The notes under the pieces are model-generated. The model did not search any database. It was not told the origin of the DNA and saw only the letters and a program-made list of their open reading frames with translations. DNA of 64,000 nt. It comes from Candidatus Rifleibacterium amylolyticum. Lineage in GTDB: Bacteria; Muiribacteriota; Ozemobacteria; Ozemobacterales; Ozemobacteraceae. The stretch is from positions 143,219-207,218 of the forward strand of contig JAACJG010000001.1 in assembly GCA_009917695.1 (NCBI GenBank), read 5' to 3'. Position 1 is the stretch's first letter. Every line of letters starts with the position of its first letter. Below are positions 39,896-64,000 of the stretch, piece by piece. A program made the position numbers and the translations under genes.

Positions 39896-39907
39896 TAGAG
39901 AGGTGTT

Positions 39908-46527: not shown

Positions 46528-47087
46528 ATAGTGTGCCCGGCATGGGCGATAACTCGGCGGTGCAAGTCCGCTACAGGCTTGGCAGCAGGAACTGTTAGCC
46601 AAAGGCAAGGGTGTCCACCGTGAGGTGGAATCTGAAGGAAGCCGGAGGCAAACCCTCGGCCCGATGAACAAGAACCGTATATAAGGCACTACGTGACTGG
46701 ACGAGCTTGCTATACAAAGCAAAGTCCGATACTGCCCGAGGTCTGCGGTGTAGATACGGCGGGTATATGAGGGGAAAGTTATCGTTCTTACCCGGGGAGA
46801 TCTTGTAGTGGTCGCCGACAAGAGGGATGGTTAGACAACCCACAGCGACAGGTGGGGCAGCAATGCCCCACTGAACTACAAGAAGTCAGCAGAGGCCATA
46901 GTAACGCGGCGATGCGCGAAGGGCCGAACAATGGTTAATCTTCGATCGTATGGATGGCGTGATGACGCAACGACTGCCGAATACTGTTCCAACAGGCTAC
47001 CTCTGCAATGATACGGTGGAACCGGAAAGTAACAGAGGAGCGCATAGCGCCGTTATACCAAAAATCGAAAAAAAAATCGAAACGAAG

Positions 47088-47957: not shown

Positions 47958-48363
47958 GCCCCTTGAGACCTTCAAAAATAGGGTTAGAATGATTACCAGT
48001 CGCAGAAGAGGAAGATCGGTCAGTCAGATTCTACAGGAAACAAAAGTTTTCACCACAGGCTGGCTGGGCTACTATGCCATTGCAGATATGAGGGAGCGTA
48101 TATCCGAACTTAACGAATGGATAAGACGGAGAATACGTCAGTATACATGGAAGCAATGGAAGAAGATCAGCGCGAAATTCCGAAATCTGAAGCAGCTTGG
48201 GATTCCTGAAGAGCGGTCATGGATGTGGGCGAATACCAGGTTGGGTTACTGGAGAACGGCTGGGAGCCCTGTGCTGACAAGGTCATTAACAAACAAATAC
48301 CTCGTATCTATCGGATATGAAGACATATCAGTAAGATACGAGGCATTGCATCAAAACCATTGA
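47905..48363 (+). CDS. Group II intron-encoded protein, thumb/X maturase domain (fragment 2, in a +1 frame relative to the RT part). No endonuclease domain is present.
   Basis: The X-domain reads GWLGYYAIADMRERISELNEWIRRRIRQYTWKQWKK...RLGYWRTAGSPVLTRSLTNKYLVSIGY. It ends 1 nt before domain V. The frames switch within 47908..47925, which contains an A4 run. An IEP that lacks the endonuclease domain is typical of class C introns. Confidence 0.65.
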   Translation: MVSHCIKGKKTGIRPHHKPLETFKNRVRMITSRRRGRSVSQILQETKVFTTGWLGYYAIADMRERISELNEWIRRRIRQYTWKQWKKISAKFRNLKQLGIPEERSWMWANTRLGYWRTAGSPVLTRSLTNKYLVSIGYEDISVRYEALHQNH

Positions 48364-48508
48364 ACCGCCGTATACCGAACGGTACGTACGGTGGGGTGAG
48401 AGGACAATGGGTGAAATAATCACCCATTTCCTACTCGATTGCTCGCGTTTTGTCTCTTCTTAGCTTCAGCGAAACAGAGCAGGCGTGTTTGTTTTTCTTG
48501 CGTAATCT

Positions 48509-48573: not shown

Positions 48574-49107
48574 TTAAATAATACCGTTGAGCAGTAGTAT
48601 GCGCAGAATCAGGTTGGCGATCATGCCGGCGGCTAGATCGTCGGCAACAATGCCGGTGCCACCGCGAAAAGTCTGAAAAAGGTTGATTGGAAAAGGCTTG
48701 AGAATATCGAGCAGGCGAAACAGGATGAAGCCGACGACAATGGCGGCAGAGCTGGCATCCCAGATAAAAAGCAGAGTCGTCCACATCCCAAGCGCTTCGT
48801 CTATCACTACTTCTTCGGGGTCGATGCTGCGGTCGATCTTTTCAATACGCTCTGATATTCCGATTGCAATAAGCGTAAAAGTGAAAAACAGCCCAATTTG
48901 AGGCCAGGCGCCAAGATTCTTTGTCATCATGAAAAGGGCAATGCCAGGCAGGCTGCCAAGAGTGCCCGGCGCTTTCTTGATGTAACCGAGGCCGAAGCAT
49001 GAGCCCAGCAGCTTGATGCTGCCGATGCTTGCTGAACTGTTAGTCCAGGAAGTGCCAATTCTTTTTGAAGTAGTCATAACCAGAATACACCGTGGCGACA
49101 GCTGCAA
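48574..49107 (-). CDS. pgpA: Phosphatidylglycerophosphatase A.
   Basis: The PgpA signature reads LLGSCFGLGYIKKAPGTLGSLPGIALF...VVIDEALGMW. The track start at 49107 overlaps pgsA by 68 nt. An internal start at 49077 (MTTSKRIG...) would reduce this overlap. Confidence 0.65.
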   Translation of the reverse strand: MQLSPRCILVMTTSKRIGTSWTNSSASIGSIKLLGSCFGLGYIKKAPGTLGSLPGIALFMMTKNLGAWPQIGLFFTFTLIAIGISERIEKIDRSIDPEEVVIDEALGMWTTLLFIWDASSAAIVVGFILFRLLDILKPFPINLFQTFRGGTGIVADDLAAGMIANLILRILLLNGII

Positions 49108-49648
49108 TGATCATGAGAACCTGAATCGTTACAGCATAGAACTGCATCAGCAGGTCGAGCCATTGCTGCTGCGCGTAACTGAGAAGAAAAATTCTGATGG
49201 TCAAAAAGCAAAGAGATGTGATGATAGCTGTAAGCTGGGCTGCGGTCTTGAGTTTGCCAGCGCCGCTGGCGTCGATGACCTTGCCGCGTTCGGCACAGAT
49301 CAGCCTGAGCCCGGTAACTGCGAATTCCCGCGCGATAATGATAATAGCGACCCAGGCCGCTGTGTGCGTGATCTCGCGGTATTCTACCATTGCGATAAGG
49401 GCGGTTGAGACCAGCAGTTTGTCGGCAATTGGATCCATGAATCGGCCAAATGTGGTAACCTGCTGATATTTTCTGGCCAGATAGCCATCGTAATAGTCGG
49501 TTATCGCTGCAACAATGAAAATAATAGTGGCAACGGCCTTGCCCCAGTCGCCTTCAAGTGCTGCTCCAGGCGGTCGATAGAAAAAGGCCACCATGAAGAA
49601 TGGTATTGCCGCCACCCGTGCGACTGTAAGTTTGGTGGCAAGATTCAT
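49040..49648 (-). CDS. pgsA: CDP-diacylglycerol--glycerol-3-phosphate 3-phosphatidyltransferase.
   Basis: The CDP-alcohol phosphatidyltransferase motif reads DYYDGYLARKYQQVTTFGRFMDPIADKLL. The 202 aa protein has multiple TM segments. Confidence 0.8.
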   Translation of the reverse strand: MNLATKLTVARVAAIPFFMVAFFYRPPGAALEGDWGKAVATIIFIVAAITDYYDGYLARKYQQVTTFGRFMDPIADKLLVSTALIAMVEYREITHTAAWVAIIIIAREFAVTGLRLICAERGKVIDASGAGKLKTAAQLTAIITSLCFLTIRIFLLSYAQQQWLDLLMQFYAVTIQVLMIIAAVATVYSGYDYFKKNWHFLD

Positions 49649-50937
49649 GCGACCATCTCCGCTGTGAAGTCGTAAGAATCTGCATTAACAATACGTACTC
49701 TGATAATGTCGCCTGGCTTAACCTTGTGTTTCCCGGCGATCGTCGTAACATTATCGACCTCATAGGCATCGCCGGCAGTTCGCGCCAGAACACGTTCAGG
49801 TTGAACTTCATCGACGATAACATTGACAACTCGATTGAGCAGTTTCTGGTTCTGCTCGCCGACAATCAGCTGTTGCAGTGTCATCAGCTGGTCGAGTCGG
49901 GCTTGTCTGGTCGATGGCCTGACCCGGGGTTTGAGTTTTTCGGCAGCGGTTCCCTCTTCTTCTGAATAGGCAAAAGCACCGACGCGGTCGAGCGGGTGCT
50001 CTTCGATAAAGTCGATGAGTTTGTCGAAATCGCGCTTCTGTTCGCCGGGAAAGCCAACGATAAAGGTGGTTCTGATCGTACCTTCTGGATAATTGCGGCG
50101 AATGTGATCGATCAGCCTGATCAGGTGTTCTGGCGAAGTGTGACGGTTCATCGCTTCCAGAATTCGTTTAGAAACGTGCTGTAGCGGAATATCGAAGTAG
50201 GGGAGGACTTTGGGGATGCTGTAGAGCTCGTCTATCAATCGCGGCGTCAGGCCGCGCGGGTGCATATAGTGAAGACGCAGCCATTCTAATCCCGTGACCG
50301 CAGAAAGTTCTCTGACCAGTGCTGGTAGCGTGCATCTGCCTTCGATATCGGTGCCATATCTGGTAATGTCCTGTGCTACAATAGACATTTCTTTTGCGCC
50401 TGAGGCTGCCAGTTTCTGGGCATCTCTGAGAATTTCAGCCTGCGGCCGCGAATAAAAAGGGCCTCTGATGCCTGGGATCGCACAGTAAGAACAACGGTTG
50501 CTGCAGCCTTCGGCAATTTTGAGTATGCCGATATGAGAGGGCGTGAAAAAGCGCCAGCTCTGGCTGTAGTCGGGGGTAAGCCGGTTGTTACTGTTAAGTG
50601 AGATCAGCATTTTAAGCTGATCTTCGCTTAAAAATTCAAAAAGATAGTCGATTTCGGGAATTTCACTCTGTATTTCGGCCCGATATCTTTTCACCAGACA
50701 ACCGAACACGCAGACTCGAATGTCGGGGTGGTTGTCTTTAATGCTGAGGTTATTCATTATTGTCGTCAGAGATTCTTCTTTGGCGTCTTTAATGAATCCG
50801 CAGGTGTTTATGAGGATCAGATCGGCCATCTCCGGCTTTTCGGCCCAAGACCAGCCTGCAGAGGCAAAGCGATTAGCGATGAACTCTGAATCTGCTGTGT
50901 TCTTGGTGCAGCCGAGGGATATCAGGTGGAATTTCAT
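49645..50937 (-). CDS. rimO: Radical-SAM methylthiotransferase of the MiaB/RimO family, most like RimO (ribosomal protein S12 methylthiotransferase).
   Basis: The MTTase N-domain is present (HLISLGCTKNTADSE). The radical SAM motif is CSNRCSYCAIP. A C-terminal TRAM-like segment is present. The 430 aa size fits RimO. The gene overlaps pgsA by 4 nt. Confidence 0.65.
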   Translation of the reverse strand: MKFHLISLGCTKNTADSEFIANRFASAGWSWAEKPEMADLILINTCGFIKDAKEESLTTIMNNLSIKDNHPDIRVCVFGCLVKRYRAEIQSEIPEIDYLFEFLSEDQLKMLISLNSNNRLTPDYSQSWRFFTPSHIGILKIAEGCSNRCSYCAIPGIRGPFYSRPQAEILRDAQKLAASGAKEMSIVAQDITRYGTDIEGRCTLPALVRELSAVTGLEWLRLHYMHPRGLTPRLIDELYSIPKVLPYFDIPLQHVSKRILEAMNRHTSPEHLIRLIDHIRRNYPEGTIRTTFIVGFPGEQKRDFDKLIDFIEEHPLDRVGAFAYSEEEGTAAEKLKPRVRPSTRQARLDQLMTLQQLIVGEQNQKLLNRVVNVIVDEVQPERVLARTAGDAYEVDNVTTIAGKHKVKPGDIIRVRIVNADSYDFTAEMVA

Positions 50938-52569: not shown

Positions 52570-52587
52570 AAAAGCTGTCTAAGGGTA

Positions 52588-53088
52588 TCATCGTGCCATG
52601 ATCGATTTCAGGGTCTGCTGCATTTTACTCAGGCTGGGAGATACCGCGGCAATGTCGCCTCCCTGACTGGGCAATACAATCCCGAGTCTTTCGGCCTCGG
52701 CCTGGCGATGTGCGCGATTTTGCTGCATTTTGCTGAGGGCTTCTGAGAACAGCGGTGAGTCAGATTGTCGTTCATCTGATTTCAGTGCTTCTTCTTTACT
52801 GCTGGCGGTCTCAGGTTCTGGTATTATCTGAACCTGACCAACAGTCTTATTGTCTGAAGTAAATTCCGGTTCAAGTTCCTCGCGTTCAGAGGCGGCCATG
52901 AATGGCTGGCTGGTGTTATTGGCCTGAGCCACGTATGATATTGAGTTCTCGGGAATTTTGTATTCGCCTTCACCAGCTATTACAGAATATGGAAAGAGAA
53001 GCATCATCAAAACGCTTAAAATTAATGCGGGTTTTACATAGCGCACGAAATTTCGGAAATTGTTCACTTTGTTATCCTTGTGACACAA
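52588..53088 (-). CDS. Hypothetical secreted or membrane-anchored protein.
   Basis: The 166-aa ORF opens with a TTG in the track. An N-terminal hydrophobic segment is present (PALILSVLMMLLFPYSVIAG). I recognise no domain. Confidence 0.3.
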   Translation of the reverse strand: MCHKDNKVNNFRNFVRYVKPALILSVLMMLLFPYSVIAGEGEYKIPENSISYVAQANNTSQPFMAASEREELEPEFTSDNKTVGQVQIIPEPETASSKEEALKSDERQSDSPLFSEALSKMQQNRAHRQAEAERLGIVLPSQGGDIAAVSPSLSKMQQTLKSIMAR

Positions 53089-53156: not shown

Positions 53157-53197
53157 AAAAAAAAACTGCCCGTTGCAGCTGCAACAGGCAGTTTTTT
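53157..53197 (-). terminator. Rho-independent terminator downstream of the TPR gene on the minus strand. Its symmetric structure makes it potentially bidirectional.
   Basis: AAAAAAAAA-CTGCCCGTTGCAG/CTGCAACAGGCAG-TTTTTT forms a 13-bp near-perfect stem with A- and T-runs on either side. Confidence 0.5.
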
Positions 53198-53204: not shown

Positions 53205-56200
53205 TCAGGCTTCGCCTTTTGACCGCTCGATGTGAACCAGCGATCTTTTCGCGTCGTTAGCCAGCGGGCCGGTTGGATCGAGTTCGATAACCTTGTTATA
53301 TTCTTCGCTCGCACGGTCATACATGTTTTTGACACGATAAATACTGGCCAGTCTGAAATGTGCTTCAACATAGTTGGGATCGAGCTGGATAGCTTTTCGG
53401 TATTCCTGCATCGCCTCGTTTTTCATGTTGATCTGATAGTTCTCGTTGTAGGCTTCGCCAAGCTCGTAATGTGCTCTTGGACTGTTTTCGTCGACCTTTA
53501 GGGCCTTGCGGCAGATGGCGATTGCTTCGTCATACATGTGCTTGCCGCTGATAGACTGTTTGCTGTAGACGATCTTCAGGCCCCAGTATGGCCAAAGGTT
53601 ATTGGGGTCACAGCTGTTGGCCAGCTTAAAGTAGTAAACGGCCTTCTGCTGCTCTTCTTCAGTTGGAGTAAAGCCGGACCCCAGCGTTATGAAAGCATAG
53701 CCCAGGCTGAAGTTCGCCATGGTATCTTTGGGGTTGGCTTCAGCTTTCGTCTGGTATTCCTTTAACAGCGCGGCCAGCTGGCGGTCGCGATCCTGTGCTT
53801 TGGCGAGCATTTCCTTGCTGATGTCGATTATCTTCATATGATAATCACCGCTCATTGGCTCAAGTTCAAGCAGCTGGCGCAGCTCTGAAAGCGCTTCCGC
53901 AAACCTTGTCTGGCTCTGATAGAGGTCAGCCAGTTTCCGATGCACGTAAGTGCTTTCCGGGTCTTTTTCCAGGATCTGCTTGTAAATGCTCTCGACATCG
54001 GCGAGCATGTTGCGGCGATGATAAACCTTCGCCAGTTCGGTCATCGCAAATACATTGCCGGGGTCAAGCTCAAGAACCTTTTGAAAGCATTCTATCGACT
54101 GCGTGATCGCCGTTTCTTCGTCGATTTCTGCATCGAGGCCCTTTGACACAAACAGGCCGAGCTCAAGCCAGTCGCAATAATTCTGACCCTGTTCTACCGC
54201 TGCGCGGATGGACTTGTTGAAGTCCTGCAGCTCTTCGGGCGAACTGAAGTTGTTGAGTGCTTTGAATTTCAGCTGGGTGATCAGCTCAATTCGCAGGTCA
54301 ACATTGGTTGGAAAGTATTGTTTGGCGGTACTGAGAGCCTCTACGGCTTCAACTATCTTGCCTTTGCGAATATGCAGGTTGCCAAGTCTGAGTGGAAGTT
54401 CCTTGTAGCGGGCGTTTTTGTCGAGTCCGATAGCCTGTTCGTATTCGAAGGTGGCTTCATCAAACATGTTCTTTGATTCGTAGAGAGACCCGAGTTTGAA
54501 ACGTGCGTCGAGATTGTGGTTGTCAAGGTCGATGATGCTGTCATAATGCATGATCGCCGTATCGACGTCGCCTTCTTTTTCGGCTTCAGCTGCTTTGGCG
54601 AAGGCTTCGTCGATTTCCTGACTGCGCTGGGAGGCTGAGAGATTGGCAAAGAAATCTGATGCCACCATATTGCCGGCATCAACTTCAATGACCTTTTGAA
54701 ACCATACTCTTGCCGTGTCGAAGTCGTTCTTTTCGCGATAAAGAATGCCGAGTTGAAGAACCGGGTCGAGTTCGGTCGGAATGACCTGATTGGCGGCCTC
54801 GTATTTTTCGATGGCTTCATCAACCCAGCCCTTGTCCTGAAAAATCTTGCCAAGCATATACAGACCCTGGAAATGGTCTGGAGCCATGCCGAGCAGTTCC
54901 TGCAATTCGATAGATGCTTCATCGGGCTGATCTATCTTCATATATGTCTGGGCCAGAGAGATGTATACTTCTGGCTGTTCCGGGTCAATTTCTTTTGCTT
55001 TCAGCAGCGCTTCAAGTGCTTTCTCGTATGATTCCATGGTGAAATGGAGATTTCCCAGTTCATACCAGGCAATCTGATTGTTGGCCTGAATTTCGATGAC
55101 TTTTTCATACTCGAGTACAGCATTTTTGAACATTCCGCGTTCTGAAAAGATGCGGGCCTGCTTGATACCTTCGTTTGCCTGTGAACTTACTTTAACGTTC
55201 ACCAGCGCATTGTAGTATTCCTTGCCCTGTAGATGAAGCGGATCAAGCTCAAGTACCCTGGTGAATTCCTTCAGAGCATCATCGACTTTGCCGAGGTCGT
55301 TATAGGCCTTGCCCAGCTCGAAATGAGCATTTACCGATTTTTCATCAAGACTGAGAGCTGTTTTTAGTTCAGTAATACCACTTTCAATCATGCTGCTGTC
55401 ATTATATGACTTGCCCATGTTGAGATAAATGCAGCCAAGCTCTGTTCTGGCGATAGGATTGTTGGGCTCGTCTGCGATGATATCCTTGAAAGTCATACTC
55501 GCCTGATCTATCATATTGCTGATAGAATATACTCGGCCAAGCTGAATCCGCGCCATGGTGTTGTTGGGATCATTGTTGATGAGGGTTTTGAGCTCAAGTA
55601 TCGCCATCTCATGATCGCCGGTTCTGGCGTAGGCCTCAGAAATTATTGAGCTGATCTCATTATTACCGGGGTTAATCTGACGCGCTTCCTGAAGAATTGC
55701 AATTACCTGTGCAAAATCTTCGCAGGTCATGTACAGTCTGGCGATCTCAAGAGTTATCGAGAGATCCTGCGGTGCAACTACTCTGGCCTGATTCAGCACT
55801 TCAAGACCTTCTTCGAACATCTGGCGACTCTGATAAATGCGCGACATCTTGACATACAGGCTGATATCTTCGGGAGTCTGCTGACGCAGATTCTCAAGCT
55901 CATCGAGAGCCTGTTGATGGAAATTTCGCATCAGGTATATATCGACGAGGTTATTGAGAAACTGCGGCGACTGGTCGGAGAGCTCACGTGCCTGCTGCAG
56001 ATAGGCAAGGCCGTTTTCGCTGTCGCCTTCCTGAAGAAGATTGCTGCCGAGTTCAAGATACAGTCGGGGATCGCGTGCGCCAAGCGAAATTGCCTGCTTG
56101 AGCGAGGCGATCTGGTCGTGGGTGCGGCCAAGCGCCCGGTAAAGCTCGCCAAGGTCGAGATGTGCCTTGAGATTGTCGGGATTGCGCTGGATAATAACGT

Positions 56201-57812
56201 TGTATGAGCGAATGGCTTCTTCGTTCATACCCCGCTGTTTATAAATTTCGGCAAGAATTTCGTGTGGGCTGGTGTCTTCAGGATTCAGTTGCAGAGCCTG
56301 CTGCAGTGATGTGATCGCTTCTGAGACGAAGCCCAGTTTAAGATATATCGGGCCAAGAATGTTCAGCCAGCGTGAAGACGGGTTCAGCTGATGGAGGCGC
56401 AGAAGTGTGGTCACGGCATCACGATCTCTGCCGCCCGCGATCTGGAGTTCGTGCAGATCGCTGAGGAGCTCGATGTTGGCCTGATCGTTCTCCAGAAGAG
56501 CATTGATCGCATCGATTTCTTCGTTGATCATGCCCTTGCTGCGATAGATCATGCGCAGTTCACCCTTGATATCGCTGCGGCCCGGGTCAAGTTCGAGAAC
56601 CCGCATATAATATGTGTTGGCTTCTTCTATCATGCCCTGCTCGCCGTAAGCTCTGGCCAGAATCAGTGCCAGTTCAGAGTCTTCCGGGATGCTGACGCTC
56701 AAGGCTTCGAGCGCATCAAGGCAAAGAGCTGCATTGCCGCCGGCTCGAACTATTTCATACAGGCGTTCCAAGATGTCGTAGTCTTCAGGATCAGATTCGA
56801 GAGCTTGTTTATAGCATTCTATCGCTTTGTCGAGATCGCCATTGGCAGCGTATGAAGCTGCCAGGTTTTTCATGATTTCGCTTGAGGACGTATCCTGTGC
56901 TGCTATGGCTTCGTATTCTTTTATCTGAAGTTCATACAGGCCCTTTTCGCCATAGAGATTCGCAAGCTCGTAGCGGATTTCAAGCCAGTCAGGCTTCATC
57001 CGGGCGATAGCCTCGAATTCCTGGAGAGCTTCTTCCATCATTTCAAGTCTCTGATAAAGCTTGCCACAGCGGTAGAAAAGTTCGACATTGTTCTTGTCGA
57101 GCTCTTTTACCGCCTCGTATTTGGCGAGGGCCTCTTCAAATTTGCCGCGAGTTTCGAGGTCCTTGGCGATTTTGAAATGAATAGCCGGATTGTTTGGGTC
57201 GAGATATTCGGCTTTTTTATATTCCATCATCGCATCGTTATATTGACCATTGAATTCATAGGCTTCGCCAAGCTCTGAGTGAAGTCTGGCGTTGTCAGGA
57301 TCGTTTTCGATGGCCTGTTGATATAGCGAAATTGCGCTGTCAATATCGTTCTGAGTGATTTTAAGACGGGCCAGTTCAATTATGGCGCCGGTGAATTTGC
57401 GGTCCAGGTCAATGGCTCGATTGAAGTGCTTTTCGGCTTTATCAAAAGAATTGCGCTGTAGATAAAGCTGGCCGAGGTCAAATTGCAGTTCTTTGTTGTC
57501 CGGGGCCAGGCTTATCGCCTTGTCATAGATCTCTATTGCCTGATCGGTCTGACCAGTCTGGATATACAATGATCCAAGGGTGTTGAGAGCAGGAGCATCT
57601 GCCGGAGACAGCGAAATGATGTTCTCAAGAGTTTTAATTGCCTCGGTCTTGTTGTCGAGATGCTGATAGCAGTCTGCCATCAGTTTCATTGCCGGCACGA
57701 AGTCCGGCTTTTCTTCAAGTACCTTTCCGAGGGTCTTGCTGGCTTTTTCGTAGTTCTGCAGCTCGAAGTATGTCTGCCCTTTTTCCAGAAGGATTTCCCA
57801 GCGGTTAATCAT
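53205..57812 (-). CDS. Giant tetratricopeptide-repeat protein of 1535 aa.
   Basis: The protein is essentially wall-to-wall 34-residue TPR units (W-LG-Y...A...Y..A..L.P.N pattern repeated more than 35 times). No signal peptide is seen. Confidence 0.7.
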   Translation of the reverse strand: MINRWEILLEKGQTYFELQNYEKASKTLGKVLEEKPDFVPAMKLMADCYQHLDNKTEAIKTLENIISLSPADAPALNTLGSLYIQTGQTDQAIEIYDKAISLAPDNKELQFDLGQLYLQRNSFDKAEKHFNRAIDLDRKFTGAIIELARLKITQNDIDSAISLYQQAIENDPDNARLHSELGEAYEFNGQYNDAMMEYKKAEYLDPNNPAIHFKIAKDLETRGKFEEALAKYEAVKELDKNNVELFYRCGKLYQRLEMMEEALQEFEAIARMKPDWLEIRYELANLYGEKGLYELQIKEYEAIAAQDTSSSEIMKNLAASYAANGDLDKAIECYKQALESDPEDYDILERLYEIVRAGGNAALCLDALEALSVSIPEDSELALILARAYGEQGMIEEANTYYMRVLELDPGRSDIKGELRMIYRSKGMINEEIDAINALLENDQANIELLSDLHELQIAGGRDRDAVTTLLRLHQLNPSSRWLNILGPIYLKLGFVSEAITSLQQALQLNPEDTSPHEILAEIYKQRGMNEEAIRSYNVIIQRNPDNLKAHLDLGELYRALGRTHDQIASLKQAISLGARDPRLYLELGSNLLQEGDSENGLAYLQQARELSDQSPQFLNNLVDIYLMRNFHQQALDELENLRQQTPEDISLYVKMSRIYQSRQMFEEGLEVLNQARVVAPQDLSITLEIARLYMTCEDFAQVIAILQEARQINPGNNEISSIISEAYARTGDHEMAILELKTLINNDPNNTMARIQLGRVYSISNMIDQASMTFKDIIADEPNNPIARTELGCIYLNMGKSYNDSSMIESGITELKTALSLDEKSVNAHFELGKAYNDLGKVDDALKEFTRVLELDPLHLQGKEYYNALVNVKVSSQANEGIKQARIFSERGMFKNAVLEYEKVIEIQANNQIAWYELGNLHFTMESYEKALEALLKAKEIDPEQPEVYISLAQTYMKIDQPDEASIELQELLGMAPDHFQGLYMLGKIFQDKGWVDEAIEKYEAANQVIPTELDPVLQLGILYREKNDFDTARVWFQKVIEVDAGNMVASDFFANLSASQRSQEIDEAFAKAAEAEKEGDVDTAIMHYDSIIDLDNHNLDARFKLGSLYESKNMFDEATFEYEQAIGLDKNARYKELPLRLGNLHIRKGKIVEAVEALSTAKQYFPTNVDLRIELITQLKFKALNNFSSPEELQDFNKSIRAAVEQGQNYCDWLELGLFVSKGLDAEIDEETAITQSIECFQKVLELDPGNVFAMTELAKVYHRRNMLADVESIYKQILEKDPESTYVHRKLADLYQSQTRFAEALSELRQLLELEPMSGDYHMKIIDISKEMLAKAQDRDRQLAALLKEYQTKAEANPKDTMANFSLGYAFITLGSGFTPTEEEQQKAVYYFKLANSCDPNNLWPYWGLKIVYSKQSISGKHMYDEAIAICRKALKVDENSPRAHYELGEAYNENYQINMKNEAMQEYRKAIQLDPNYVEAHFRLASIYRVKNMYDRASEEYNKVIELDPTGPLANDAKRSLVHIERSKGEA

Positions 57813-57873
57813 TCGCCTGTCTCCTTAGCTGTGTCATATATATCAGTGTTTCTGTATTGCCGCAACGCTGGCA

Positions 57874-60800
57874 TCAATCGTCGCCCTCCTCGGCTTCCAT
57901 CAGTTCATCCGCTTTTTCAAAGGCTTTGACCGCCTCTTCTTTTTTACCCATGCCGCGATAAGTTTTGCCGAGCAGGAAGTAAACCGTGGAGCCGGCTTCG
58001 GGGAATCCGGCCGCTTTCTGCAGATTCTGCAGAGCTTCTTCATAAGATTCTTTTTCAAGGTAGTCGGCACCGATCTTGAGCAGAACTTCGTAGTTCTCTT
58101 CCATCTGGCCCTGAGCCTTCTTGAAGGATTCGGTAGCCTTTGACTTGTCATTGAGTCCTTCGTAAGCTTTACCCAGCAGGAAGTGGGCTTCGCCATTATC
58201 GGGGGTGATGCTTACGGCTTTTTCGAGCGCAGGCGCCGCTTCAGCCAGCATGCCATTGTCAATGTAGAGTTTGCCCAGTTCGAAGTAGACTTCCTGGTGG
58301 TTTGAATCGAGGTTGATGACTTTCTTGAATTCTTCGATCGCCTCAGTGACCTTGAGCTGCTTATAATAAGCTTTTCCCAGCTCAAAGTGAGCCCGGCTGT
58401 TGGTCGGATAGCGATTGATCGCTTTTTTGTAGAGACGAACCATTTTTTCGTAACTCTGGTGTTCCCAGAATATTGCGCCAAGTGCATAAATGCATTCAAT
58501 CAGGTTTTCATTGAGCGCCAGTGCCTGTTCGAAGTTGGCGGCAGCTTCGTTCTGCTGACCAAGCCCGCGATAGGCTTCCCCAAGCTCAAAGAAGAACAGA
58601 GCATTTTTAGGTGCCGCTTCGACTGCTTTTGAATAGAGAGCGACCATGGCATCGTAATTCTGGTTCTGCTTGTATTGAGCGCCAAGCCGATAAATGATGT
58701 TGAGGTCGCCGGGCTTGAAATCGAGCGCCTTTTCGAATGAGTTTATGGCACCCTGAACGTCGCCGAGTTTTTCGCAGGCTTCGCCAAGTTCTTTGTGAAC
58801 CAGGTAGTTCTCGGCCTCGAGCTCGATAGCCTTTTCGTAAAACTCTTTTGCTTCCTGCCACTGTTCCATTGACAGGTGGATCGTGCCAAGCTTCTGGTAG
58901 ACGTCGACATAGTCATCCTGCAATTCGAGAGCGCGTTTGAACTTGAGCATGGCATCGTGGTATTCGTCGCGCTGATAGTAGACGTCGCCGAGCTCGTAGT
59001 AGATGACGGCATTCTCAGGATCGAGCTGGCTGGCTCTCTGAAGCTCATCGATGGCGTCATCGGTGCGCCCGGTGTCGCGCAGGTGGCGGCCAAGCTCAAG
59101 GTGGGCGCGCTTGTGGTCAGGTGCCAGTCCGATTACAGTCTTGAATTCATTGATGGCATTGTCGTTCAGGCCCTGGGTCGAATAAATTATGCCAAGCTCG
59201 AAGTGAGCGCTGGCATTGCGTGGATCGAGGCTTATTACCTTGCGGTAAGCGTCGACAGCTTCGTCGATGATGCCCTGGCTGGCGTAGGCCTTAGCCAGTT
59301 CAATATTAACCGCGATATTTGAGGGCTCGTAATTGAGGGCTTCTTTGAATTCGCCGATCGCTTTATCGACGCGCCCCTTGTTGATATAAGCCATTGCCAG
59401 CTCGCGGTGCGGTACCGGGCTGCTGCCGTCAATCTGAATTGCCCGGCTGAAGCGTTCGATCGCCATGTCAAGATTGCCCTGTTTTCTGTGCATCAGACCA
59501 ATCTGAGTCAGAATTTCAGCGTTGTTGGGTTCGCGTTCGAGCGCCGCTTCGAATTCACGCAGAGCATCGGTCAGGCGATTGAGGTGATCGTAGACCTTAC
59601 CGAGTTCGAGGTGAATCATTGAGTTCTGTGGATCGGTTTCGAAGACGCGTACGTAGTATTTGGCCGCTTCTTCCCACTTTTCAAGGGATGCGTAGATTTT
59701 GCCGAGGCGAATAAGCGCATCGGTGCGCTCTTCGTTGATTTCTGCAACTTTGAGATATTCGTCAAGCGCTTTTTCGAGCTGACCGCAGTGGTAACAGGTT
59801 TCGGCCAGGCGGAAACGGGCCGAATGGTTTTGCGGATCCATTTCTACCAGCCGGCGATAGCAGTTTCCTGCCAGCTCATACTGCTCTGACATGTTGTAGA
59901 GGTCGCCGAGATTGGCGAGCGCTTCGCCAAGTGACGGGTCGATTTCGAGAGCCAGCTTGTATTCTTCGATAGCTTTGGCGCTCTTGTCCTGGTCGAGATA
60001 AACTTCAGCCAGTTCGACATGAGCCTGCGGCGCATCCGGGCGAATCTTGATGGCTGATTTATAAGATTCAACCGATTTTTCAAGGGCATTGCGGTGATGG
60101 TAGATTCGGCCAAGCTCAAGGTGGGCTTCGAATATTTCAGGCTCGATGTCGACTACTGTGTGAAGAGCATTGAGAGCCTTATCATGCAGATCTCTGATGA
60201 TGTAGATCTTGGCCAGCGACATCTGAGCCGGGACATGATCAGGCTTGATTTCGACCACTTTTCTGAATTCGTCTTCGGCCTTATAAATCTGGTTCGTGCT
60301 TTCATACAGGTGGGCGAGGTTCTCATGGGCCAACAGGCCTTCGGGCTGCAGTTCGATGGCTCTGAGATATTCTTCTTCTGCTTCTTTGAGCAGATCTAAT
60401 CGCTCAAGAGTGTTGGCGTAGAGTATGATCGCATCAATGAAGTCGTTTTCACGCTCAAGAACTTTTTCGAGAATGTTCTTCGCTTCCTGCCAGTTGCCAG
60501 AATCAGCATGGAGTCTGGCCAGATCGAACTGAATCCAGGACGGGTCTGGTGCCAGGGTGATGGCGCGACCCAGTTCGTCGATAGCCTGCTGGAAACGGCC
60601 ATTGCGGTGATGCAGCAGACCCAGGTAATAACGGGCCTGATAGTGCTCAGGTTCGAGCTCGATAGTTCTGGTCAGCCGTATTCGTGCGGTTTCATCCTGA
60701 TTCTCTTCGAAGCTGATGCGGCCGATGGCAAAATGCGCTTCAGTATAGTCAATATCGAGTTCTACGGCTTTGCGCAGATTGGCGAGAGCCTTTTCTGTTT

Positions 60801-62724
60801 CTTTGATGTCTTGGTAGACGCGGCCAAGTTCGTAGTAACCCTGGGCAAAGTTCGGGTTGATGCGGATAATCTTCTGATAAAGCTTGATCGCTTCTTCTTC
60901 ATGTTTTTCGGCATACTTGATTTCGGCCATGTGCAGATATGCCGGAATATAGGTTTTGTCCTTTTCGGCGGCCTGTGAGAAATAGTCGTAAGCCTTGCTC
61001 AGATTGCCCATCTTTCGGTAGACATCGCCGGTTTCAAAATATGCACGCGGATCTTCGGGGTCGAGTTCGGTGACCAGTTTGCAGGCTTCAAGAGCCTGAT
61101 CATACAGAGGTGTTGAGTTCTCGAGTGTTGTCAGATAAGAGTTCTTGAGGCCCCAATACGCCCATTTGAAATCAGGAGTAAGATTGATCGCCATCTGATA
61201 GCCGTTGAGAGCCTCTTCAAGCCGTTCTTCCTGCTTTTCGGGCAACTGCGACGGCAGAACCTGACAGGCGTAGGCCAGGGCAAAGTGTGATACCGGGTTC
61301 TGGAAGTCAACCATAGCTGAATTCTTGTATTGTTCGATGAACTTGCTGTAAAGTGTTTCGGTATCTTTGCTGTCGAGGGTTCTGATGCGGTAGAGGTCGA
61401 TCTGGTTCATAATCGCCAGCGGGCTTGATTTGTCGATTTCGAGAGCTTTTTCAAAAGCCTCATAGGCTTCTTCATACTGACGGCGTTTTACATAGATTTT
61501 ACCGAGCTCTATCCAGGCACCGAGAGCGTTGGCTTCTTTGAAGAAGCGCAGCTTGTTGAAAAGATAGCCTTCCTGGTATACGTCATGGGTGCGGTTGCGC
61601 GACAGTTCGATAACTTCGCGGAATCTGGTGATCGCGAGCTCGAGCATTCCCATCAACAGATGAATGCTTCCCAGCCGAAAGTGGGCAAAAACATTGGTCG
61701 GGTTGATATTGAGACCCTGCTGGTAATATTCGATAGCCTGGTCGTAATTGGCCTTCTGCTCGCTGATGTAGCCGAGTCGGAAGTAGGCGGGAGCATAGCC
61801 CGGGCTGAGTTCAAGAGCGCGGCGGTAGCTGCTGTGCGCGCTGGCCAGGGCTTCTTCTGTAATCATCGCGTGTTCAGCCTGCGAAATCAGATAGCATTCG
61901 CCGAGCTCGAAATTCAGGCGCGGGTCGTCACTGATCTGGTCGAGGGCCGCCAGCAGCTGGTCAACCGCCTTGTCGTAACGGCCATCATAAATATACAGAT
62001 CTTTGATGCCAAGATGTGCCCAGAGATTTTTCGGATTGATTTCGAGCGCGCGCTCCATCATCAATTTTGCTTCCTGGCGCTGCTCGACAAATTTTTCGCT
62101 GTCCTGCGAATGCAGAATCAGATAGGCGTTGCCCATAATGCAGTTTGCCATCGATTCGCTCTCAATTGTGCGCAGATCTTCGCGCAGCTTGTCGATAATT
62201 GCCTGATAGCGCTGCTCGCGATCAGGCATGTTCGAACACAGCGCTCTGTATTGGAGAATAAGTCTGATCCAGGTTTCACCATCTTCAGGCTCGCTTTTCA
62301 GACACTGGCGATAAGATGAGATCGATTCGTCAAAGATGCCCTGAACCGAGTAGATGTCGCCGAGAGCCTTATGCACTATCGGGTTCTGAACGTCGAGAAT
62401 AGCAGCCTTCTTATAGTCGAGCAAGGCTTTTTCAAAAAGACCCTTGTTCTTGTAGATGCTGGCCTGGCTGATATACAGGTTGACACGTTCCTGCTTCTCA
62501 TCGTCAGAAAACAGGCTGGCACGTTCTTTCATCAGCACCAGCTCATTCTGCTCGGCCAGTTTTTTGAGCGAGTCGAGATACTCGCGCGAAGCGGTGCCTA
62601 TCTCCAGGAAAATGCAGCGCGCTTCCTGCGCATGATAGAACATGCACTGTTCCTGTATGCACCCGCCTTCCGGGCCTTTGTCTTCTCTCAGTTTACCCAG
62701 AAAAGGGCATATTTCCTTGGTCAT
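57874..62724 (-). CDS. Giant tetratricopeptide-repeat protein of 1616 aa with an N-terminal Cys-rich segment.
   Basis: The TPR repeats run throughout. The N-terminus MTKEICPFLGKLREDKGPEGGCIQEQCMFYHAQEARCIF contains four Cys that might form a zinc knuckle. The start codon overlaps the ftsK stop (ATGA). Confidence 0.7.
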   Translation of the reverse strand: MTKEICPFLGKLREDKGPEGGCIQEQCMFYHAQEARCIFLEIGTASREYLDSLKKLAEQNELVLMKERASLFSDDEKQERVNLYISQASIYKNKGLFEKALLDYKKAAILDVQNPIVHKALGDIYSVQGIFDESISSYRQCLKSEPEDGETWIRLILQYRALCSNMPDREQRYQAIIDKLREDLRTIESESMANCIMGNAYLILHSQDSEKFVEQRQEAKLMMERALEINPKNLWAHLGIKDLYIYDGRYDKAVDQLLAALDQISDDPRLNFELGECYLISQAEHAMITEEALASAHSSYRRALELSPGYAPAYFRLGYISEQKANYDQAIEYYQQGLNINPTNVFAHFRLGSIHLLMGMLELAITRFREVIELSRNRTHDVYQEGYLFNKLRFFKEANALGAWIELGKIYVKRRQYEEAYEAFEKALEIDKSSPLAIMNQIDLYRIRTLDSKDTETLYSKFIEQYKNSAMVDFQNPVSHFALAYACQVLPSQLPEKQEERLEEALNGYQMAINLTPDFKWAYWGLKNSYLTTLENSTPLYDQALEACKLVTELDPEDPRAYFETGDVYRKMGNLSKAYDYFSQAAEKDKTYIPAYLHMAEIKYAEKHEEEAIKLYQKIIRINPNFAQGYYELGRVYQDIKETEKALANLRKAVELDIDYTEAHFAIGRISFEENQDETARIRLTRTIELEPEHYQARYYLGLLHHRNGRFQQAIDELGRAITLAPDPSWIQFDLARLHADSGNWQEAKNILEKVLERENDFIDAIILYANTLERLDLLKEAEEEYLRAIELQPEGLLAHENLAHLYESTNQIYKAEDEFRKVVEIKPDHVPAQMSLAKIYIIRDLHDKALNALHTVVDIEPEIFEAHLELGRIYHHRNALEKSVESYKSAIKIRPDAPQAHVELAEVYLDQDKSAKAIEEYKLALEIDPSLGEALANLGDLYNMSEQYELAGNCYRRLVEMDPQNHSARFRLAETCYHCGQLEKALDEYLKVAEINEERTDALIRLGKIYASLEKWEEAAKYYVRVFETDPQNSMIHLELGKVYDHLNRLTDALREFEAALEREPNNAEILTQIGLMHRKQGNLDMAIERFSRAIQIDGSSPVPHRELAMAYINKGRVDKAIGEFKEALNYEPSNIAVNIELAKAYASQGIIDEAVDAYRKVISLDPRNASAHFELGIIYSTQGLNDNAINEFKTVIGLAPDHKRAHLELGRHLRDTGRTDDAIDELQRASQLDPENAVIYYELGDVYYQRDEYHDAMLKFKRALELQDDYVDVYQKLGTIHLSMEQWQEAKEFYEKAIELEAENYLVHKELGEACEKLGDVQGAINSFEKALDFKPGDLNIIYRLGAQYKQNQNYDAMVALYSKAVEAAPKNALFFFELGEAYRGLGQQNEAAANFEQALALNENLIECIYALGAIFWEHQSYEKMVRLYKKAINRYPTNSRAHFELGKAYYKQLKVTEAIEEFKKVINLDSNHQEVYFELGKLYIDNGMLAEAAPALEKAVSITPDNGEAHFLLGKAYEGLNDKSKATESFKKAQGQMEENYEVLLKIGADYLEKESYEEALQNLQKAAGFPEAGSTVYFLLGKTYRGMGKKEEAVKAFEKADELMEAEEGDD

Positions 62725-64000
62725 ACCTGAGTATTACTCCTTCCGATGAGAACTCTGCGTTTGTTGGCTCCATCCATTGGGCTGACCAGTCCTTTTTCTT
62801 CAAGCTGATCCATAATTCTGGCCGCCCTATTATAACCGATTCTGAACTTTCTTTGAAGCATACTGGTTGATGTTTTTTCCTGAGTTTCCAGATACTTCAA
62901 TATCTGCTGTATCAGCGGAGAATCTGCGTCTCCACCATCGCTTTCCTCGTCTTCGTAACCATCTTCATCATCATCCGAACGGGTTGGAGCTATGTCCATA
63001 TATTCCGGCTGGCCCTGCTGCTTGACAAAGTTGATAAGATCCATCAACTCGTGGTCTGAAACATAGGCTCCCTGCAGTCGCAACGGTTTATTGCGTCCCT
63101 TCGGTATGAACAGCATATCGCCCTTGCCAAGCAGTCGTTCGGCTCCCTTGGCATCAAGAATAGTTCTAGAGTCTATCGCAGAGGTGACCGAAAATGCAAT
63201 CCTTGTTGGCAGATTCGCTTTGATCAACCCGGTCAGAACGTTCACCGACGGGCGCTGCGTCGCTATCACCAGATGCATGCCAACAGCGCGTGCCATCTGG
63301 GCCAGACGGCAGATCGACCCTTCGACTTCGGCTGAGGCCGTCATCATAAGGTCTGCCAGCTCGTCAATGACTATAACTATGAATGGCATTGGCTCAAGCT
63401 CAGGATTTTCCTGTCTGAGCCTTTCTATTTCCTCATTGTAAGTGGAGATTTTTTTGCAGCCACATTCGGCCATTATTTCGTAGCGTCTCGTCATTTCTTC
63501 GACCGCCCACATAAGAGCTGCCGAGGCTTTTGCAGGATCAGTCACCACTGGAGCGATCAGGTGCGGAATGCCATTGTAGGAAGACAGCTCGACCATTTTG
63601 GGATCGATCATCACAAACTTTACCTGATCGGCGCGGGCCTGAAACAAAATGCTGGCAATGATGGTGTTAACACATACCGATTTGCCAGAACCAGTTGAAC
63701 CGGCGATCAGCAGGTGTGGCATCTCCGAAAGATCCGCGAGCACCGGTTTGCCTTCTATGGTTACGCCGAGAGCCAGATTCAGAGGAATTGGATTCTTACC
63801 GAATTTTTCATTTTTCAGCAGCTCGTAAAAATATACTGGAGTCGCCTTGGGATTCGGAATTTCGATGCCCAGTGCCGATTTGCCGGGAATAGGCGCTTCA
63901 ATGCGAATTGCCTGTGCGGCAAGCGCCAGGGCTATGTCGTCTGTCAGACCGGTAATTCTCGATACCTTTACTCCGGGCGCCGGCTTGATTTCAAATCGTG
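62721..64000 (-). CDS. ftsK: DNA translocase FtsK/SpoIIIE, C-terminal motor and gamma domains (partial). The gene continues beyond the window end.
   Basis: The Walker A motif reads LLIAGSTGSGKSV. The Walker B region reads IVIVIDELADLMM. The gamma winged helix reads LIQQILKYLETQEKTSTSMLQRKFRIGYNRAARIMDQLEEKGLV. The reading frame stays open upstream to 64000. Confidence 0.85.
   Translation of the reverse strand, partial: RFEIKPAPGVKVSRITGLTDDIALALAAQAIRIEAPIPGKSALGIEIPNPKATPVYFYELLKNEKFGKNPIPLNLALGVTIEGKPVLADLSEMPHLLIAGSTGSGKSVCVNTIIASILFQARADQVKFVMIDPKMVELSSYNGIPHLIAPVVTDPAKASAALMWAVEEMTRRYEIMAECGCKKISTYNEEIERLRQENPELEPMPFIVIVIDELADLMMTASAEVEGSICRLAQMARAVGMHLVIATQRPSVNVLTGLIKANLPTRIAFSVTSAIDSRTILDAKGAERLLGKGDMLFIPKGRNKPLRLQGAYVSDHELMDLINFVKQQGQPEYMDIAPTRSDDDEDGYEDEESDGGDADSPLIQQILKYLETQEKTSTSMLQRKFRIGYNRAARIMDQLEEKGLVSPMDGANKRRVLIGRSNTQV

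What the first reader, a model, noticed from the sequence alone, without database searches (positions are those of the whole stretch)
53205..64000. Two giant all-TPR proteins translationally coupled to ftsK
- ftsK (partial), a 1616-aa TPR protein and a 1535-aa TPR protein lie head-to-tail on the minus strand.
- The ftsK stop and the first TPR start overlap as ATGA, a 61-nt gap separates the two TPR genes, and a single terminator follows.
- Each protein carries more than 35 tandem TPR units and nothing else except a four-Cys N-terminal segment on the first (C-x15-C-x4-C-x9-C, possibly zinc-binding).
- Over 3100 residues of scaffold co-expressed with the divisome DNA pump suggests a role in division-site or chromosome-segregation protein assembly.
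- They could alternatively be very large adaptors for envelope biogenesis.
- The pair is probably a duplication.
Basis: partly seen in the sequence, partly recalled or inferred. Interest (0 to 1): 0.5.

Follow-up and report, generated by a model that had tools for sequence, protein, structure and literature searches.

The report
Conserved giant TPR pair behind ftsK
Two very large, soluble repeat proteins sit directly behind the chromosome-pumping gene ftsK in every available genome of two uncultured bacterial phyla, with almost no length change, so they are probably an essential but uncharacterised cellular scaffold whose tie to cell division is still only inferred.

Summary
On the minus strand, partial ftsK ends in an ATGA overlap with a 1616-aa TPR protein (TPR1). 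A 61-nt gap with a Shine-Dalgarno site follows, then a 1535-aa TPR protein (TPR2) and a strong intrinsic terminator.

The window comes from a Rifleibacteriota (Ozemobacteraceae-like) genome. The order ftsK-TPR1-TPR2 is kept in all about 40 species genomes that could be inspected, and in three Wallbacteria-like contigs at about 30% identity.

Across 31 and 30 orthologues (50-94% identity), TPR1 is 1611-1616 aa with 2 internal gap columns. TPR2 is 1534-1536 aa with 4. dN/dS is about 0.03. The four N-terminal cysteines are invariant. Both proteins are acidic and have no signal peptide or membrane segment.

TPR1 and TPR2 co-evolve strongly, with partial r 0.83. Neither co-evolves with the FtsK motor.

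The wider block efp-bacA-ftsK-...-rimO-pgsA-pgpA is also syntenic, and a Firmicute has it without the TPR genes.

Best reading: a fixed-geometry cytoplasmic TPR1-TPR2 scaffold co-expressed with FtsK. I call it a new variant of a known kind. Function is untested.

The parts
62721..64000 (-). ftsK, C-terminal 425 codons (alpha, motor and gamma domains); the gene continues beyond the window
   Evidence: Pfam FtsK_alpha, FtsK_SpoIIIE and FtsK_gamma. It is 97% identical to the FtsK of HGW-Riflebacteria-2. Full-length orthologues are about 900-1000 aa, with an N-terminal membrane domain and an acidic linker.
62721..62724 (-). ATGA overlap of the ftsK stop (TGA) and the TPR1 start (ATG)
   Evidence: Read directly from the sequence. 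The same 4-nt overlap occurs in 29 of 37 Rifleibacteriota loci, and 7 others have a 3-9 nt gap.
57874..62724 (-). TPR1, 1616 aa, 186 kDa, pI 5.0, soluble
   Evidence: Orthologues are 1611-1616 aa in 31 genomes, with 2 internal gap columns and 20% invariant columns. dN/dS is 0.03.
62614..62709 (-). Cys4 segment of TPR1 (C6, C22, C27, C37), a putative metal site
   Evidence: All four Cys are invariant, with invariant spacing, in 31 orthologues. They are kept as C-x17-C-x4-C-x9-C in Wallbacteria-like proteins. No Pfam match. AlphaFold2 confidence is below 50 here.
61855..62292 (-). variant TPR module, copy A (TPR1 residues 145-290)
   Evidence: Aligns to TPR2 residues 1318-1455 better than to any of 118 unrelated giant TPR proteins.
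61000..61434 (-). variant TPR module, copy B (TPR1 residues 431-575)
   Evidence: Reciprocal best match to TPR2 residues 1329-1457, at 51 bits against at most 29 bits for unrelated TPR proteins.
57892..61053 (-). uninterrupted array of 31 TPR units in exact 34-residue register (TPR1 residues 558-1611)
   Evidence: Conservation peaks at repeats 13-18 (residues 967-1170) and 26-27 (residues 1409-1476).
57813..57873 (-). 61-nt intergenic spacer with Shine-Dalgarno AAGGAG (57821-57826) 8 nt before the TPR2 ATG
   Evidence: The spacer is 32-107 nt in orthologous loci.
53205..57812 (-). TPR2, 1535 aa, 175 kDa, pI 4.75, soluble
   Evidence: Orthologues are 1534-1536 aa in 30 genomes, with 4 internal gap columns. 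dN/dS is 0.03. The most conserved stretch is residues 1395-1535.
53418..53861 (-). variant TPR module in TPR2 (residues 1318-1465)
53157..53191 (-). intrinsic terminator (hairpin 53166-53191, T-run 53157-53165); the A-tract upstream makes it potentially bidirectional
   Evidence: Folds at -27.6 kcal/mol, z = -6.9.
48574..50937 (-). rimO (49645-50937), pgsA (49040-49648) and pgpA (48574-49107): the downstream end of the conserved synteny block
   Evidence: RimO scores 421.9 bits on TIGR01125 against a cut-off of 357. CDP-OH_P_transf and PgpA by Pfam. These genes lie downstream of TPR2 in most loci.

Best explanation
TPR1 and TPR2 are two lineage-specific, housekeeping-grade cytoplasmic alpha-solenoid proteins. 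I propose that they assemble with each other into a scaffold of fixed geometry, about 360 kDa per heterodimer and roughly 75-85 TPR units.

Shown:
- They are made from the ftsK transcript. TPR1 is translationally coupled to ftsK through the ATGA overlap. TPR2 starts from its own ribosome-binding site, and one terminator closes the unit.
- The arrangement is conserved across Rifleibacteriota and Wallbacteria-like bacteria.
- Selection against both substitutions and indels is extreme.
- There are no export signals.
- TPR1 and TPR2 co-evolve tightly.

Inferred:
- The scaffold works with membrane-anchored FtsK late in division or chromosome segregation. For example, it could hold FtsK or its partners at the septum at a set spacing.
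- The conserved patches (TPR1 residues 953-1170 and 1409-1476, TPR2 residues 1395-1535) are docking sites.
- The invariant N-terminal Cys4 site binds a metal, either Zn or an Fe-S cluster, for folding or regulation.
For: - Gene layout and terminator.
- Order ftsK-TPR1-TPR2 in all inspectable loci of about 40 Rifleibacteriota species genomes, with TPR1 identity from 94% down to 50% and the ATGA overlap in 29 of 37.
- The same order in Wallbacteria-like contigs L087-L089. There FtsK is about 50% identical, and TPR1-like (about 1717 aa) and TPR2-like (1302 aa) are each about 30% identical and collinear.
- No ftsK within 10 kb of 38 unrelated giant TPR genes.
- Near-absence of indels over 1.5-1.6 kaa.
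- dN/dS about 0.03, against 0.02 for the FtsK motor.
- Kimura distances of 0.47 and 0.51, which lie between PgsA (0.45) and RimO (0.57).
- TPR1-TPR2 distance correlation r = 0.977, with partial r = 0.83 after removing RimO and PgsA.
- pI of 5.0 and 4.75, and maximum Kyte-Doolittle (19-residue window) of 1.3, so both are soluble and cytoplasmic.
- Cys4 invariant.
- GC content like the rest of the window.
Against: - There is no direct evidence for any interaction with FtsK.
- Partial correlation of TPR1 and TPR2 with the FtsK motor/gamma region is about 0, at -0.07 and 0.14.
- The whole block from efp to pgpA is syntenic. A Firmicute keeps bacA...ftsK...rimO-pgsA with other genes in the slot. 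Adjacency may therefore be inherited order.
- In Wallbacteria-like loci a 63-nt gap replaces the overlap.
- The co-evolution signal between two proteins of the same repeat type may partly reflect shared rate behaviour.
- dS is near saturation, so dN/dS is approximate.
- The Cys4 fold and its metal are unresolved.
Confidence: 0.4

Rival explanations
1. The pair is an essential cytoplasmic TPR1-TPR2 scaffold whose client is not FtsK. It sits behind ftsK only because it was inserted into an old, rarely rearranged gene block. The client could be another large assembly, such as cytoplasmic steps of envelope lipid or peptidoglycan-carrier metabolism (bacA, pgsA and pgpA are neighbours) or translation-linked factors (efp and rimO are neighbours).
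For: - Block-wide synteny from efp to pgpA across the phylum.
- The same ftsK...rimO-pgsA order in Desulfofundulus without TPR genes.
- No excess co-evolution with the FtsK motor.
- Loss of the start/stop overlap in Wallbacteria-like loci.
Against: - The trio stays intact where the flanks change. bacA is missing in 6 or more loci, rimO is not found downstream in L022 and L036, and p166 plus SLBB are inserted after TPR2 rather than between ftsK and TPR1.
- The ATGA overlap is kept in most species.
- No insertion between ftsK and TPR1 was ever seen in about 40 loci.
Confidence: 0.35
2. The pair is chiefly a regulator or sensor. The invariant Cys4 site holds a redox-sensitive Fe-S cluster or zinc. 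Its state changes the solenoid's ability to bind or sequester FtsK or other division proteins, tying division to redox or metal status in these anaerobes.
For: - The four Cys and their spacing are invariant from Rifleibacteriota to Wallbacteria-like proteins.
- The spacing is not the paired CxxC type of classical zinc ribbons (read from the sequence).
- There is no match to any zinc-finger family, with the best Pfam E-value at 0.57.
Against: - Only about 40 of more than 3100 residues are involved.
- The extreme conservation of length and sequence along the whole solenoids points to a structural role.
- The metal identity is unknown, and the structure prediction was uninformative.
Confidence: 0.1
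3. The two proteins are periplasmic or outer-membrane envelope-biogenesis adaptors, like the TPR lipoproteins BamD, LpoA, PilW, PrsT or CpoB.
For: NCBIfam models for PrsT, PilW, Tgl, GltE and YbgF give high summed scores.
Against: - Those scores are sums over many generic repeats (7-10 stretches each), not family-specific matches.
- Neither protein has a signal peptide, a lipobox or any hydrophobic segment.
- TPR1 begins with a conserved Cys-rich cytoplasmic-type segment.
Confidence: 0.03

Closest known systems
Long TPR superhelices: consensus CTPR proteins (PDB 8bu0, 9qhb) and the O-GlcNAc transferase TPR domain (PDB 1w3b)
   Same: These are the best sequence matches among solved structures. 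They share the 34-residue helix-turn-helix unit, and structural positions 7, 8, 20 and 27 are the most conserved. An unbroken array is expected to form a continuous superhelix (my own knowledge of CTPR and OGT structures).
   Different: They have 8-16 repeats, against 31 in perfect register and about 40 or more in total here. None has a Cys4 head or a paired second solenoid, and there is no enzyme domain as in OGT.
Giant eukaryotic TPR scaffolds: SKI3/TTC37 (PDB 7qdr, 9g8o), CTR9, the APC/C subunit CDC27, and IFT139/TTC21
   Same: They are 1000-1600-aa all-TPR proteins that act as fixed-shape platforms for multi-protein machines. Weak sequence hits were seen to them.
   Different: The similarity is generic to TPR repeats and there is no orthology. 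These are eukaryotic complexes with no bacterial counterpart here. The comparison is an analogy of role only, and it is inferred.
TPR proteins of bacterial division: cyanobacterial ZipN/Ftn2 (cytoplasmic divisome scaffold) and E. coli CpoB/YbgF (periplasmic) (own knowledge; CpoB paper PMC4458516 appeared)
   Same: They are precedents for TPR proteins organising division machinery.
   Different: ZipN has a DnaJ domain, a membrane anchor and few TPRs. CpoB is small, exported and encoded with tol-pal. Neither is encoded with ftsK. The YbgF model hit here is a short, generic stretch.
MamA, the magnetosome TPR coat protein (NF040959; PDB 3vtx)
   Same: This is the highest NCBIfam score, 535 bits against a cut-off of 200. 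It is a cytoplasmic TPR protein that self-assembles into a coat.
   Different: MamA is about 200 aa with 5 TPRs and lies in a mam gene cluster. The score here is the sum of 10 separate stretches. There are no mam genes in the window.

Membership tests
TPR repeat superfamily (Pfam clan TPR) | Tandem 34-residue units matching the TPR consensus | tested here: met
   TPR_1, 2, 8, 11, 16, 17 and 19 match at E from 1e-107 to 1e-175 in both proteins. There are 40 and 33 units, 31 of them in exact register.
FtsK/SpoIIIE DNA translocase (upstream gene) | Alpha domain, RecA-type motor and gamma (winged-helix) domain; N-terminal membrane anchor | tested here: met
   All three Pfam domains are present in the window fragment. 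The membrane domain and linker are seen in full-length orthologues. The N-terminus itself lies outside the window.
MamA (NCBIfam NF040959 equivalog) | About 200-aa protein with 5 TPRs matched end to end once, encoded in a magnetosome gene cluster | tested here: not met
   The score passes the cut-off only as a sum of 10 stretches in a 1616-aa protein. No mam genes are nearby.
PrsT / PEP-CTERM TPR lipoprotein (TIGR02917), PilW, Tgl, GltE | Signal peptide or lipobox, and the matching secretion or pilus gene neighbourhood | tested here: not met
   No hydrophobic N-terminus. The neighbours are ftsK and rimO. Scores are summed over 6-7 stretches.
CpoB/YbgF (TIGR02795) | Exported protein of about 260 aa with a coiled coil plus 3 TPRs, encoded in the tol-pal operon | tested here: not met
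   Only a 70-residue generic stretch matches, with no stretch passing on its own. No signal peptide, and no tol-pal genes in the window.
Zinc ribbon / zinc finger (for the Cys4 head) | Four metal ligands brought together in a recognised fold, and a family-level sequence match | tested here: inconclusive
   The four Cys are invariant. The best Pfam hit has E = 0.57. Two AlphaFold2 runs gave pLDDT below 50 over residues 1-27/44, so no fold search was justified.
Proposed new family: FtsK-linked giant TPR pair (Rifleibacteriota / Wallbacteria) | Cys4 head plus about 1600-1720-aa solenoid, followed by a second 1300-1535-aa solenoid, directly downstream of ftsK | tested here: met
   Window; about 40 Rifleibacteriota loci; L087-L089.
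RimO (TIGR01125), downstream gene | UPF0004, radical SAM and TRAM domains; score above the equivalog cut-off | tested here: met
   421.9 bits against 356.95. Pfam domains found.

The most novel reading that the evidence does not exclude
Rifleibacteriota and Wallbacteria possess a previously undescribed cell-division or chromosome-segregation module. In this reading, a two-protein alpha-solenoid structure of fixed length, about 360 kDa per TPR1-TPR2 unit, is an obligate partner of FtsK. It could act as a molecular ruler, ring or coat at the closing septum. It might carry a redox- or metal-sensitive Cys4 switch and might replace scaffolding functions supplied by other proteins in model bacteria.
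Probability: 0.2. Interest if true: 0.7.

Novelty: new variant of a known kind. Interest (0 to 1): 0.45.

Why it matters
These phyla are uncultured. Rifleibacteriota has been singled out for an unusually high load of unknown, lineage-defining genes (PMC10849945).

This is a concrete lineage-defining pair of genes, and its properties set it apart:
- The pair takes up 9.5 kb.
- The proteins evolve at rates between those of PgsA and RimO, two housekeeping enzymes in the same block.
- Their lengths are almost frozen over more than 3100 residues.
- The pair is welded to ftsK.

Length-invariant giant solenoids elsewhere are parts of machines with defined geometry. If the FtsK link is functional, this would be a new type of divisome or segregation accessory, and a natural example of a very long, perfectly periodic TPR superhelix. 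If it is not, the pair is still a strong target for structural genomics and a useful phylogenetic marker for the two phyla.

There is also a practical point. Summed repeat scores push these proteins over the 'equivalog' thresholds of several families (MamA, PrsT, PilW), so automated names for them cannot be trusted.

Tried and rejected
- **Word-index homologue search with TPR1.** It returned only two true orthologues, both fragments, and hundreds of generic TPR proteins at 20-30% identity. It was of little use for distribution. The genome scan and the FtsK-anchored look-ups did the job.
- **Apparent 1237-aa 'short' TPR1 in L001.** This was rejected as a variant. The next ORF continues TPR1 at about residue 1260, so the gene is broken by a frameshift or stop. 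The same applies to L032 and L042 and to the 369-aa P0250.
- **Pfam on the 80-residue head.** Nothing was found.
- **Two AlphaFold2 runs on the head, with 6 and 13 sequences.** The Cys4 part came out below pLDDT 50.
- **Exhaustive HMMER with the 75-aa head.** It found only orthologues plus one Wallbacteria-type protein. P0247 and P0249 are low-complexity repeat artefacts.
- **NCBIfam names (MamA, PrsT, PilW, LcrH and others).** These were rejected as additive-score artefacts.
- **Literature searches** (Riflebacteria; Ozemobacter; FtsK + tetratricopeptide + divisome + scaffold). No description of these genes was found.
- **Search of FtsK for a conserved lineage-specific docking motif.** The linker is too variable to say anything.
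- **DGR hypothesis for the nearby reverse transcriptase.** This was rejected. No template/variable repeats were found, and Rfam shows a group II intron.
- **Horizontal transfer.** No compositional sign in the window.
Full report
**1. What is in the sequence**

ORF listing and translation confirm three head-to-tail genes on the minus strand:
- 62721-64000: an ORF that runs off the window.
- 57874-62724: 1616 aa, here called TPR1.
- 53205-57812: 1535 aa, here called TPR2.

The first ORF carries the FtsK_alpha, FtsK_SpoIIIE motor and FtsK_gamma domains. Its stop and the TPR1 start share the tetranucleotide ATGA. TPR1 and TPR2 are separated by 61 nt, with AAGGAG 8 nt before the TPR2 ATG.

Thirteen nucleotides after the TPR2 stop there is a long hairpin followed by nine T. 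It folds at -27.6 kcal/mol with z = -6.9 against shuffles. The generic terminator scan was not enriched overall, so only this site counts.

Pfam finds nothing but TPR-type families in either protein. An HMM built from TPR1's own units finds 40 units in TPR1. Of these, 31 form an uninterrupted array in exact 34-residue register from residue 558 to 1611. The same HMM finds 33 units in TPR2.

The N-terminal cysteines are C6, C22, C27 and C37, which is C-x15-C-x4-C-x9-C as reported. Both proteins are acidic, with pI 5.0 and 4.75. Neither has a segment hydrophobic enough for a signal peptide or membrane helix; the maximum 19-residue Kyte-Doolittle value is 1.3. '>35 units' is only approximately verified for TPR2.

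**2. Whose genome, and how widespread**

The FtsK fragment's best relatives are named Candidatus Ozemobacteraceae or Riflebacteria at 72-93% identity. The next tier is Firmicutes at 57-59%.

A scan of one genome per GTDB species with an alignment of four TPR1 orthologues returned 42 loci with full-length matches. Best-segment identity ran from 94% down to 50%. Almost all are labelled Riflebacteria, Rifleibacteriota or Ozemobacteraceae. Below that there is a sharp drop to generic TPR proteins at 21-34%. The nearest is HGW-Riflebacteria-2, at FtsK 97%, TPR1 94%, TPR2 92% and about 85% nucleotide identity. The window therefore comes from a related but different species.

In every locus where the contig reaches far enough, the order is ftsK, TPR1, TPR2:
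- The ftsK/TPR1 junction is the same ATGA overlap in 29 loci and a 3-9 nt gap in 7.
- It is disrupted only in one short contig with a truncated ftsK.
- The TPR1-TPR2 spacer is 32-107 nt.
- None of the 38 loci with unrelated giant TPR proteins has an ftsK within 10 kb. Linkage to ftsK is therefore not a general habit of big TPR genes.

**3. Extension to a second candidate phylum**

An exhaustive HMMER search with the 75-residue head found only orthologues plus one distant protein, P0250. P0250 has the motif C-x17-C-x4-C-x9-C and the same downstream architecture. Its close relatives are annotated Candidatus Wallbacteria by NCBI. NCBI treats this as a separate candidate phylum, Walliibacteriota.

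Contigs of this type show the following:
- ftsK, about 50% identical.
- A 63-nt gap.
- A TPR1-like protein of about 1717 aa, 30% identical and collinear over about 1590 residues.
- A TPR2-like protein of 1302 aa, 30% identical over about 1300 residues.
- Then yajQ-like, rimO and pgsA.

The Wallbacteria label rests on database names for fragments that are 66-88% identical to P0250.

**4. Strength of selection**

Thirty-one TPR1 orthologues (50-94% identical to the window) are 1611-1616 aa. They align with only two internal gap columns, and 20% of columns are invariant. Thirty TPR2 orthologues are 1534-1536 aa with four internal gap columns. This indel intolerance is striking for repeat proteins, which usually gain and lose units.

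Against HGW-Riflebacteria-2, dN/dS is 0.031 for both proteins and 0.020 for the FtsK motor. dS is about 1 or more, so the ratio is approximate, but dN is plainly low.

Mean Kimura distances across 26 genomes are:

| Protein | Mean Kimura distance |
|---|---|
| TPR1 | 0.47 |
| TPR2 | 0.51 |
| PgsA | 0.45 |
| RimO | 0.57 |
| FtsK C-terminal half | 0.28 |

Within the periodic array, the canonical structural positions are the most conserved. Whole repeats stand out as conserved on all faces: repeats 13-18 (residues 967-1170) and 26-27 (1409-1476) in TPR1, and residues 1395-1535 in TPR2. These are the best candidates for binding surfaces. The four N-terminal cysteines are invariant in all 31 orthologues.

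**5. Relation between the two proteins**

Overall they are 23-26% identical in many alternative registers. That is no better than TPR1 against unrelated giant TPR proteins.

They do share a specific ~140-residue variant module: TPR1 145-290 and 431-575, and TPR2 1318-1465. Signature motifs are NLWAHLGIKDLY, KWAYWGLKNSY and LWPYWGLKIVY. The copies are reciprocal best matches and score above any of 118 unrelated giant TPR proteins.

A common origin is therefore plausible, but it is old. Both genes already exist separately in the Wallbacteria-like loci. It was not a simple tandem copy, because the module sits near the head of TPR1 and near the tail of TPR2.

Their pairwise distance matrices correlate at r = 0.977. 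After regressing out RimO and PgsA the partial correlation is still 0.83. This fits two proteins that work as one unit. The caveats are that the pairs are not independent and that both proteins are the same kind of repeat protein.

**6. How good is the FtsK link?**

For the link:
- The linkage is unbroken across two phyla.
- The start/stop overlap is retained in most species.
- No gene was ever found inserted between ftsK and TPR1, although flanks do change. bacA is missing in several loci. A 166-aa gene and an SLBB-domain gene are inserted after TPR2 in one subclade, including this window. rimO is not detected downstream in two loci.

Against the link:
- The entire block efp-bacA-ftsK-TPR1-TPR2-rimO-pgsA-pgpA is syntenic across the phylum.
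- The Firmicute Desulfofundulus luciae has bacA...ftsK-selU-RodZ-like-x-rimO-pgsA...cinA. The TPR pair therefore occupies a slot in an old, stable neighbourhood. Another Firmicute, Carboxydocella, lacks the block.
- The TPR proteins show no excess co-evolution with the FtsK motor/gamma region, with partial r of -0.07 and 0.14.
- FtsK itself looks ordinary, with a membrane domain, a variable acidic linker and conserved motor and gamma domains.

Co-transcription and coupled translation are well supported. Functional partnership with FtsK is an inference.

**7. Most likely mechanism**

I commit to the following at about 0.4 confidence. TPR1 and TPR2 form a cytoplasmic hetero-oligomeric solenoid scaffold whose exact length matters, hence the indel intolerance. 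It is produced together with FtsK and acts with it late in division or chromosome segregation, using the conserved repeat blocks as docking sites. The Cys4 head binds a metal.

From my own knowledge of consensus TPR and OGT structures, there are about 8 repeats per superhelical turn. The 31-repeat array alone would then make roughly four turns, a few tens of nanometres long. This geometry was not computed here.

The main rival, at about 0.35, keeps the TPR1-TPR2 scaffold but gives it a client other than FtsK and attributes the adjacency to inherited order. A sensor or regulator reading centred on the Cys4 site (0.1) and a periplasmic-adaptor reading (0.03, contradicted by the lack of any export signal) are less likely.

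**8. Comparison with known systems**

By sequence these are members of the TPR superfamily. The closest solved relatives are designed consensus TPR superhelices and the OGT TPR domain.

NCBIfam equivalog cut-offs for MamA, PrsT, PilW, LcrH/SycD, Tgl and GltE are exceeded only because many generic repeats add up. Length, export signals and gene context fail those memberships.

Functionally, the nearest analogies are giant eukaryotic TPR platforms (SKI3/TTC37, CTR9, APC/C subunits, IFT139) and bacterial division-associated TPR proteins (ZipN/Ftn2, CpoB). None is encoded with ftsK.

Full-text searches found no description of these genes. One paper notes that Riflebacteria have the highest density of novel gene families and 26 putative synapomorphic ones (PMC10849945).

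I classify the finding as a new variant of a known kind. It is an ordinary fold in an unusual, tightly conserved, ftsK-coupled two-gene architecture with a novel Cys4 head.

**9. Limits**
- The Cys4 fold could not be predicted.
- No multimer prediction was possible.
- No expression or localisation data exist.
- The denominator of Rifleibacteriota genomes lacking the pair is unknown, because only matching loci were returned.
- Several GTDB records carrying the locus are labelled as other taxa (Methylomirabilis, Erysipelotrichia, Avigastranaerophilus). These are probably mis-binned.

Noticed in passing
window 46614-48439 (+): A group II intron. Rfam domains D1-D4 lie at 46614-46786 and 46849-46924 and domain V/VI at 48363-48439, flanking a 335-aa reverse-transcriptase ORF (46950-47957, RVT_1). 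It lies between a C25 (gingipain-like) peptidase gene and pgpA. No DGR-type repeats were found.
   Followed up: partly
window 51262-53088: A 166-aa ORF with no family match (52588-53088, minus strand) and a 435-aa SLBB-domain protein (51262-52569, plus strand) lie between TPR2 and rimO. They are present only in one Rifleibacteriota subclade. In other genomes rimO follows TPR2 directly, so this is a later insertion into the block.
   Followed up: partly
window 337-17768 (-): A flagellar gene cluster: a ParA/MinD-type ATPase (possibly FlhG), FlhA, FlhB, FliR, FliP, FliO, FliN/FliY-like, FliM, a 914-aa FlgE-like hook protein and a FliK-like protein. It is unrelated to the finding.
   Followed up: no
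window 53205-62724 (TPR1, TPR2): NCBIfam 'equivalog' thresholds for MamA, PrsT, PilW, LcrH/SycD, Tgl and GltE are exceeded purely by summing many generic TPR stretches. Automated annotation could give these proteins misleading names.
   Followed up: yes
L014, L037, L020, L041 (genome contigs records): Records titled Candidatus Methylomirabilis, Erysipelotrichia and Candidatus Avigastranaerophilus carry Rifleibacteriota-type ftsK-TPR1-TPR2 loci at 68-80% identity. These are probably mis-binned contigs or mislabelled MAGs.
   Followed up: no
L001 7602-12229; L032; L042; L087: In several metagenomic contigs the TPR1 gene is interrupted by a frameshift or premature stop. Examples are a 1237-aa call in L001 whose continuation is the next ORF, and a 369-aa call in L087. 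These are likely assembly errors in repeat-rich DNA rather than true short forms.
   Followed up: partly
L093 (Desulfofundulus luciae) 1086-15123: bacA...ftsK-selU-RodZ-like-small ORF-rimO-pgsA...cinA. This is the same ancestral neighbourhood as in the window. A RodZ-like cell-shape protein sits in the slot that holds the TPR pair in Rifleibacteriota.
   Followed up: no
window 20435-27999 and 29824-42853 (+): Two adjacent FecR-domain paralogues (561 and 573 aa) are followed by two large ORFs with no family match (654 and 621 aa). Further on are a 944-aa HEAT-repeat protein, a DUF4912 protein next to a GH57 branching enzyme, and a 981-aa CHASE2 adenylate/guanylate cyclase. The cluster of uncharacterised large proteins was not examined.
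   Followed up: no
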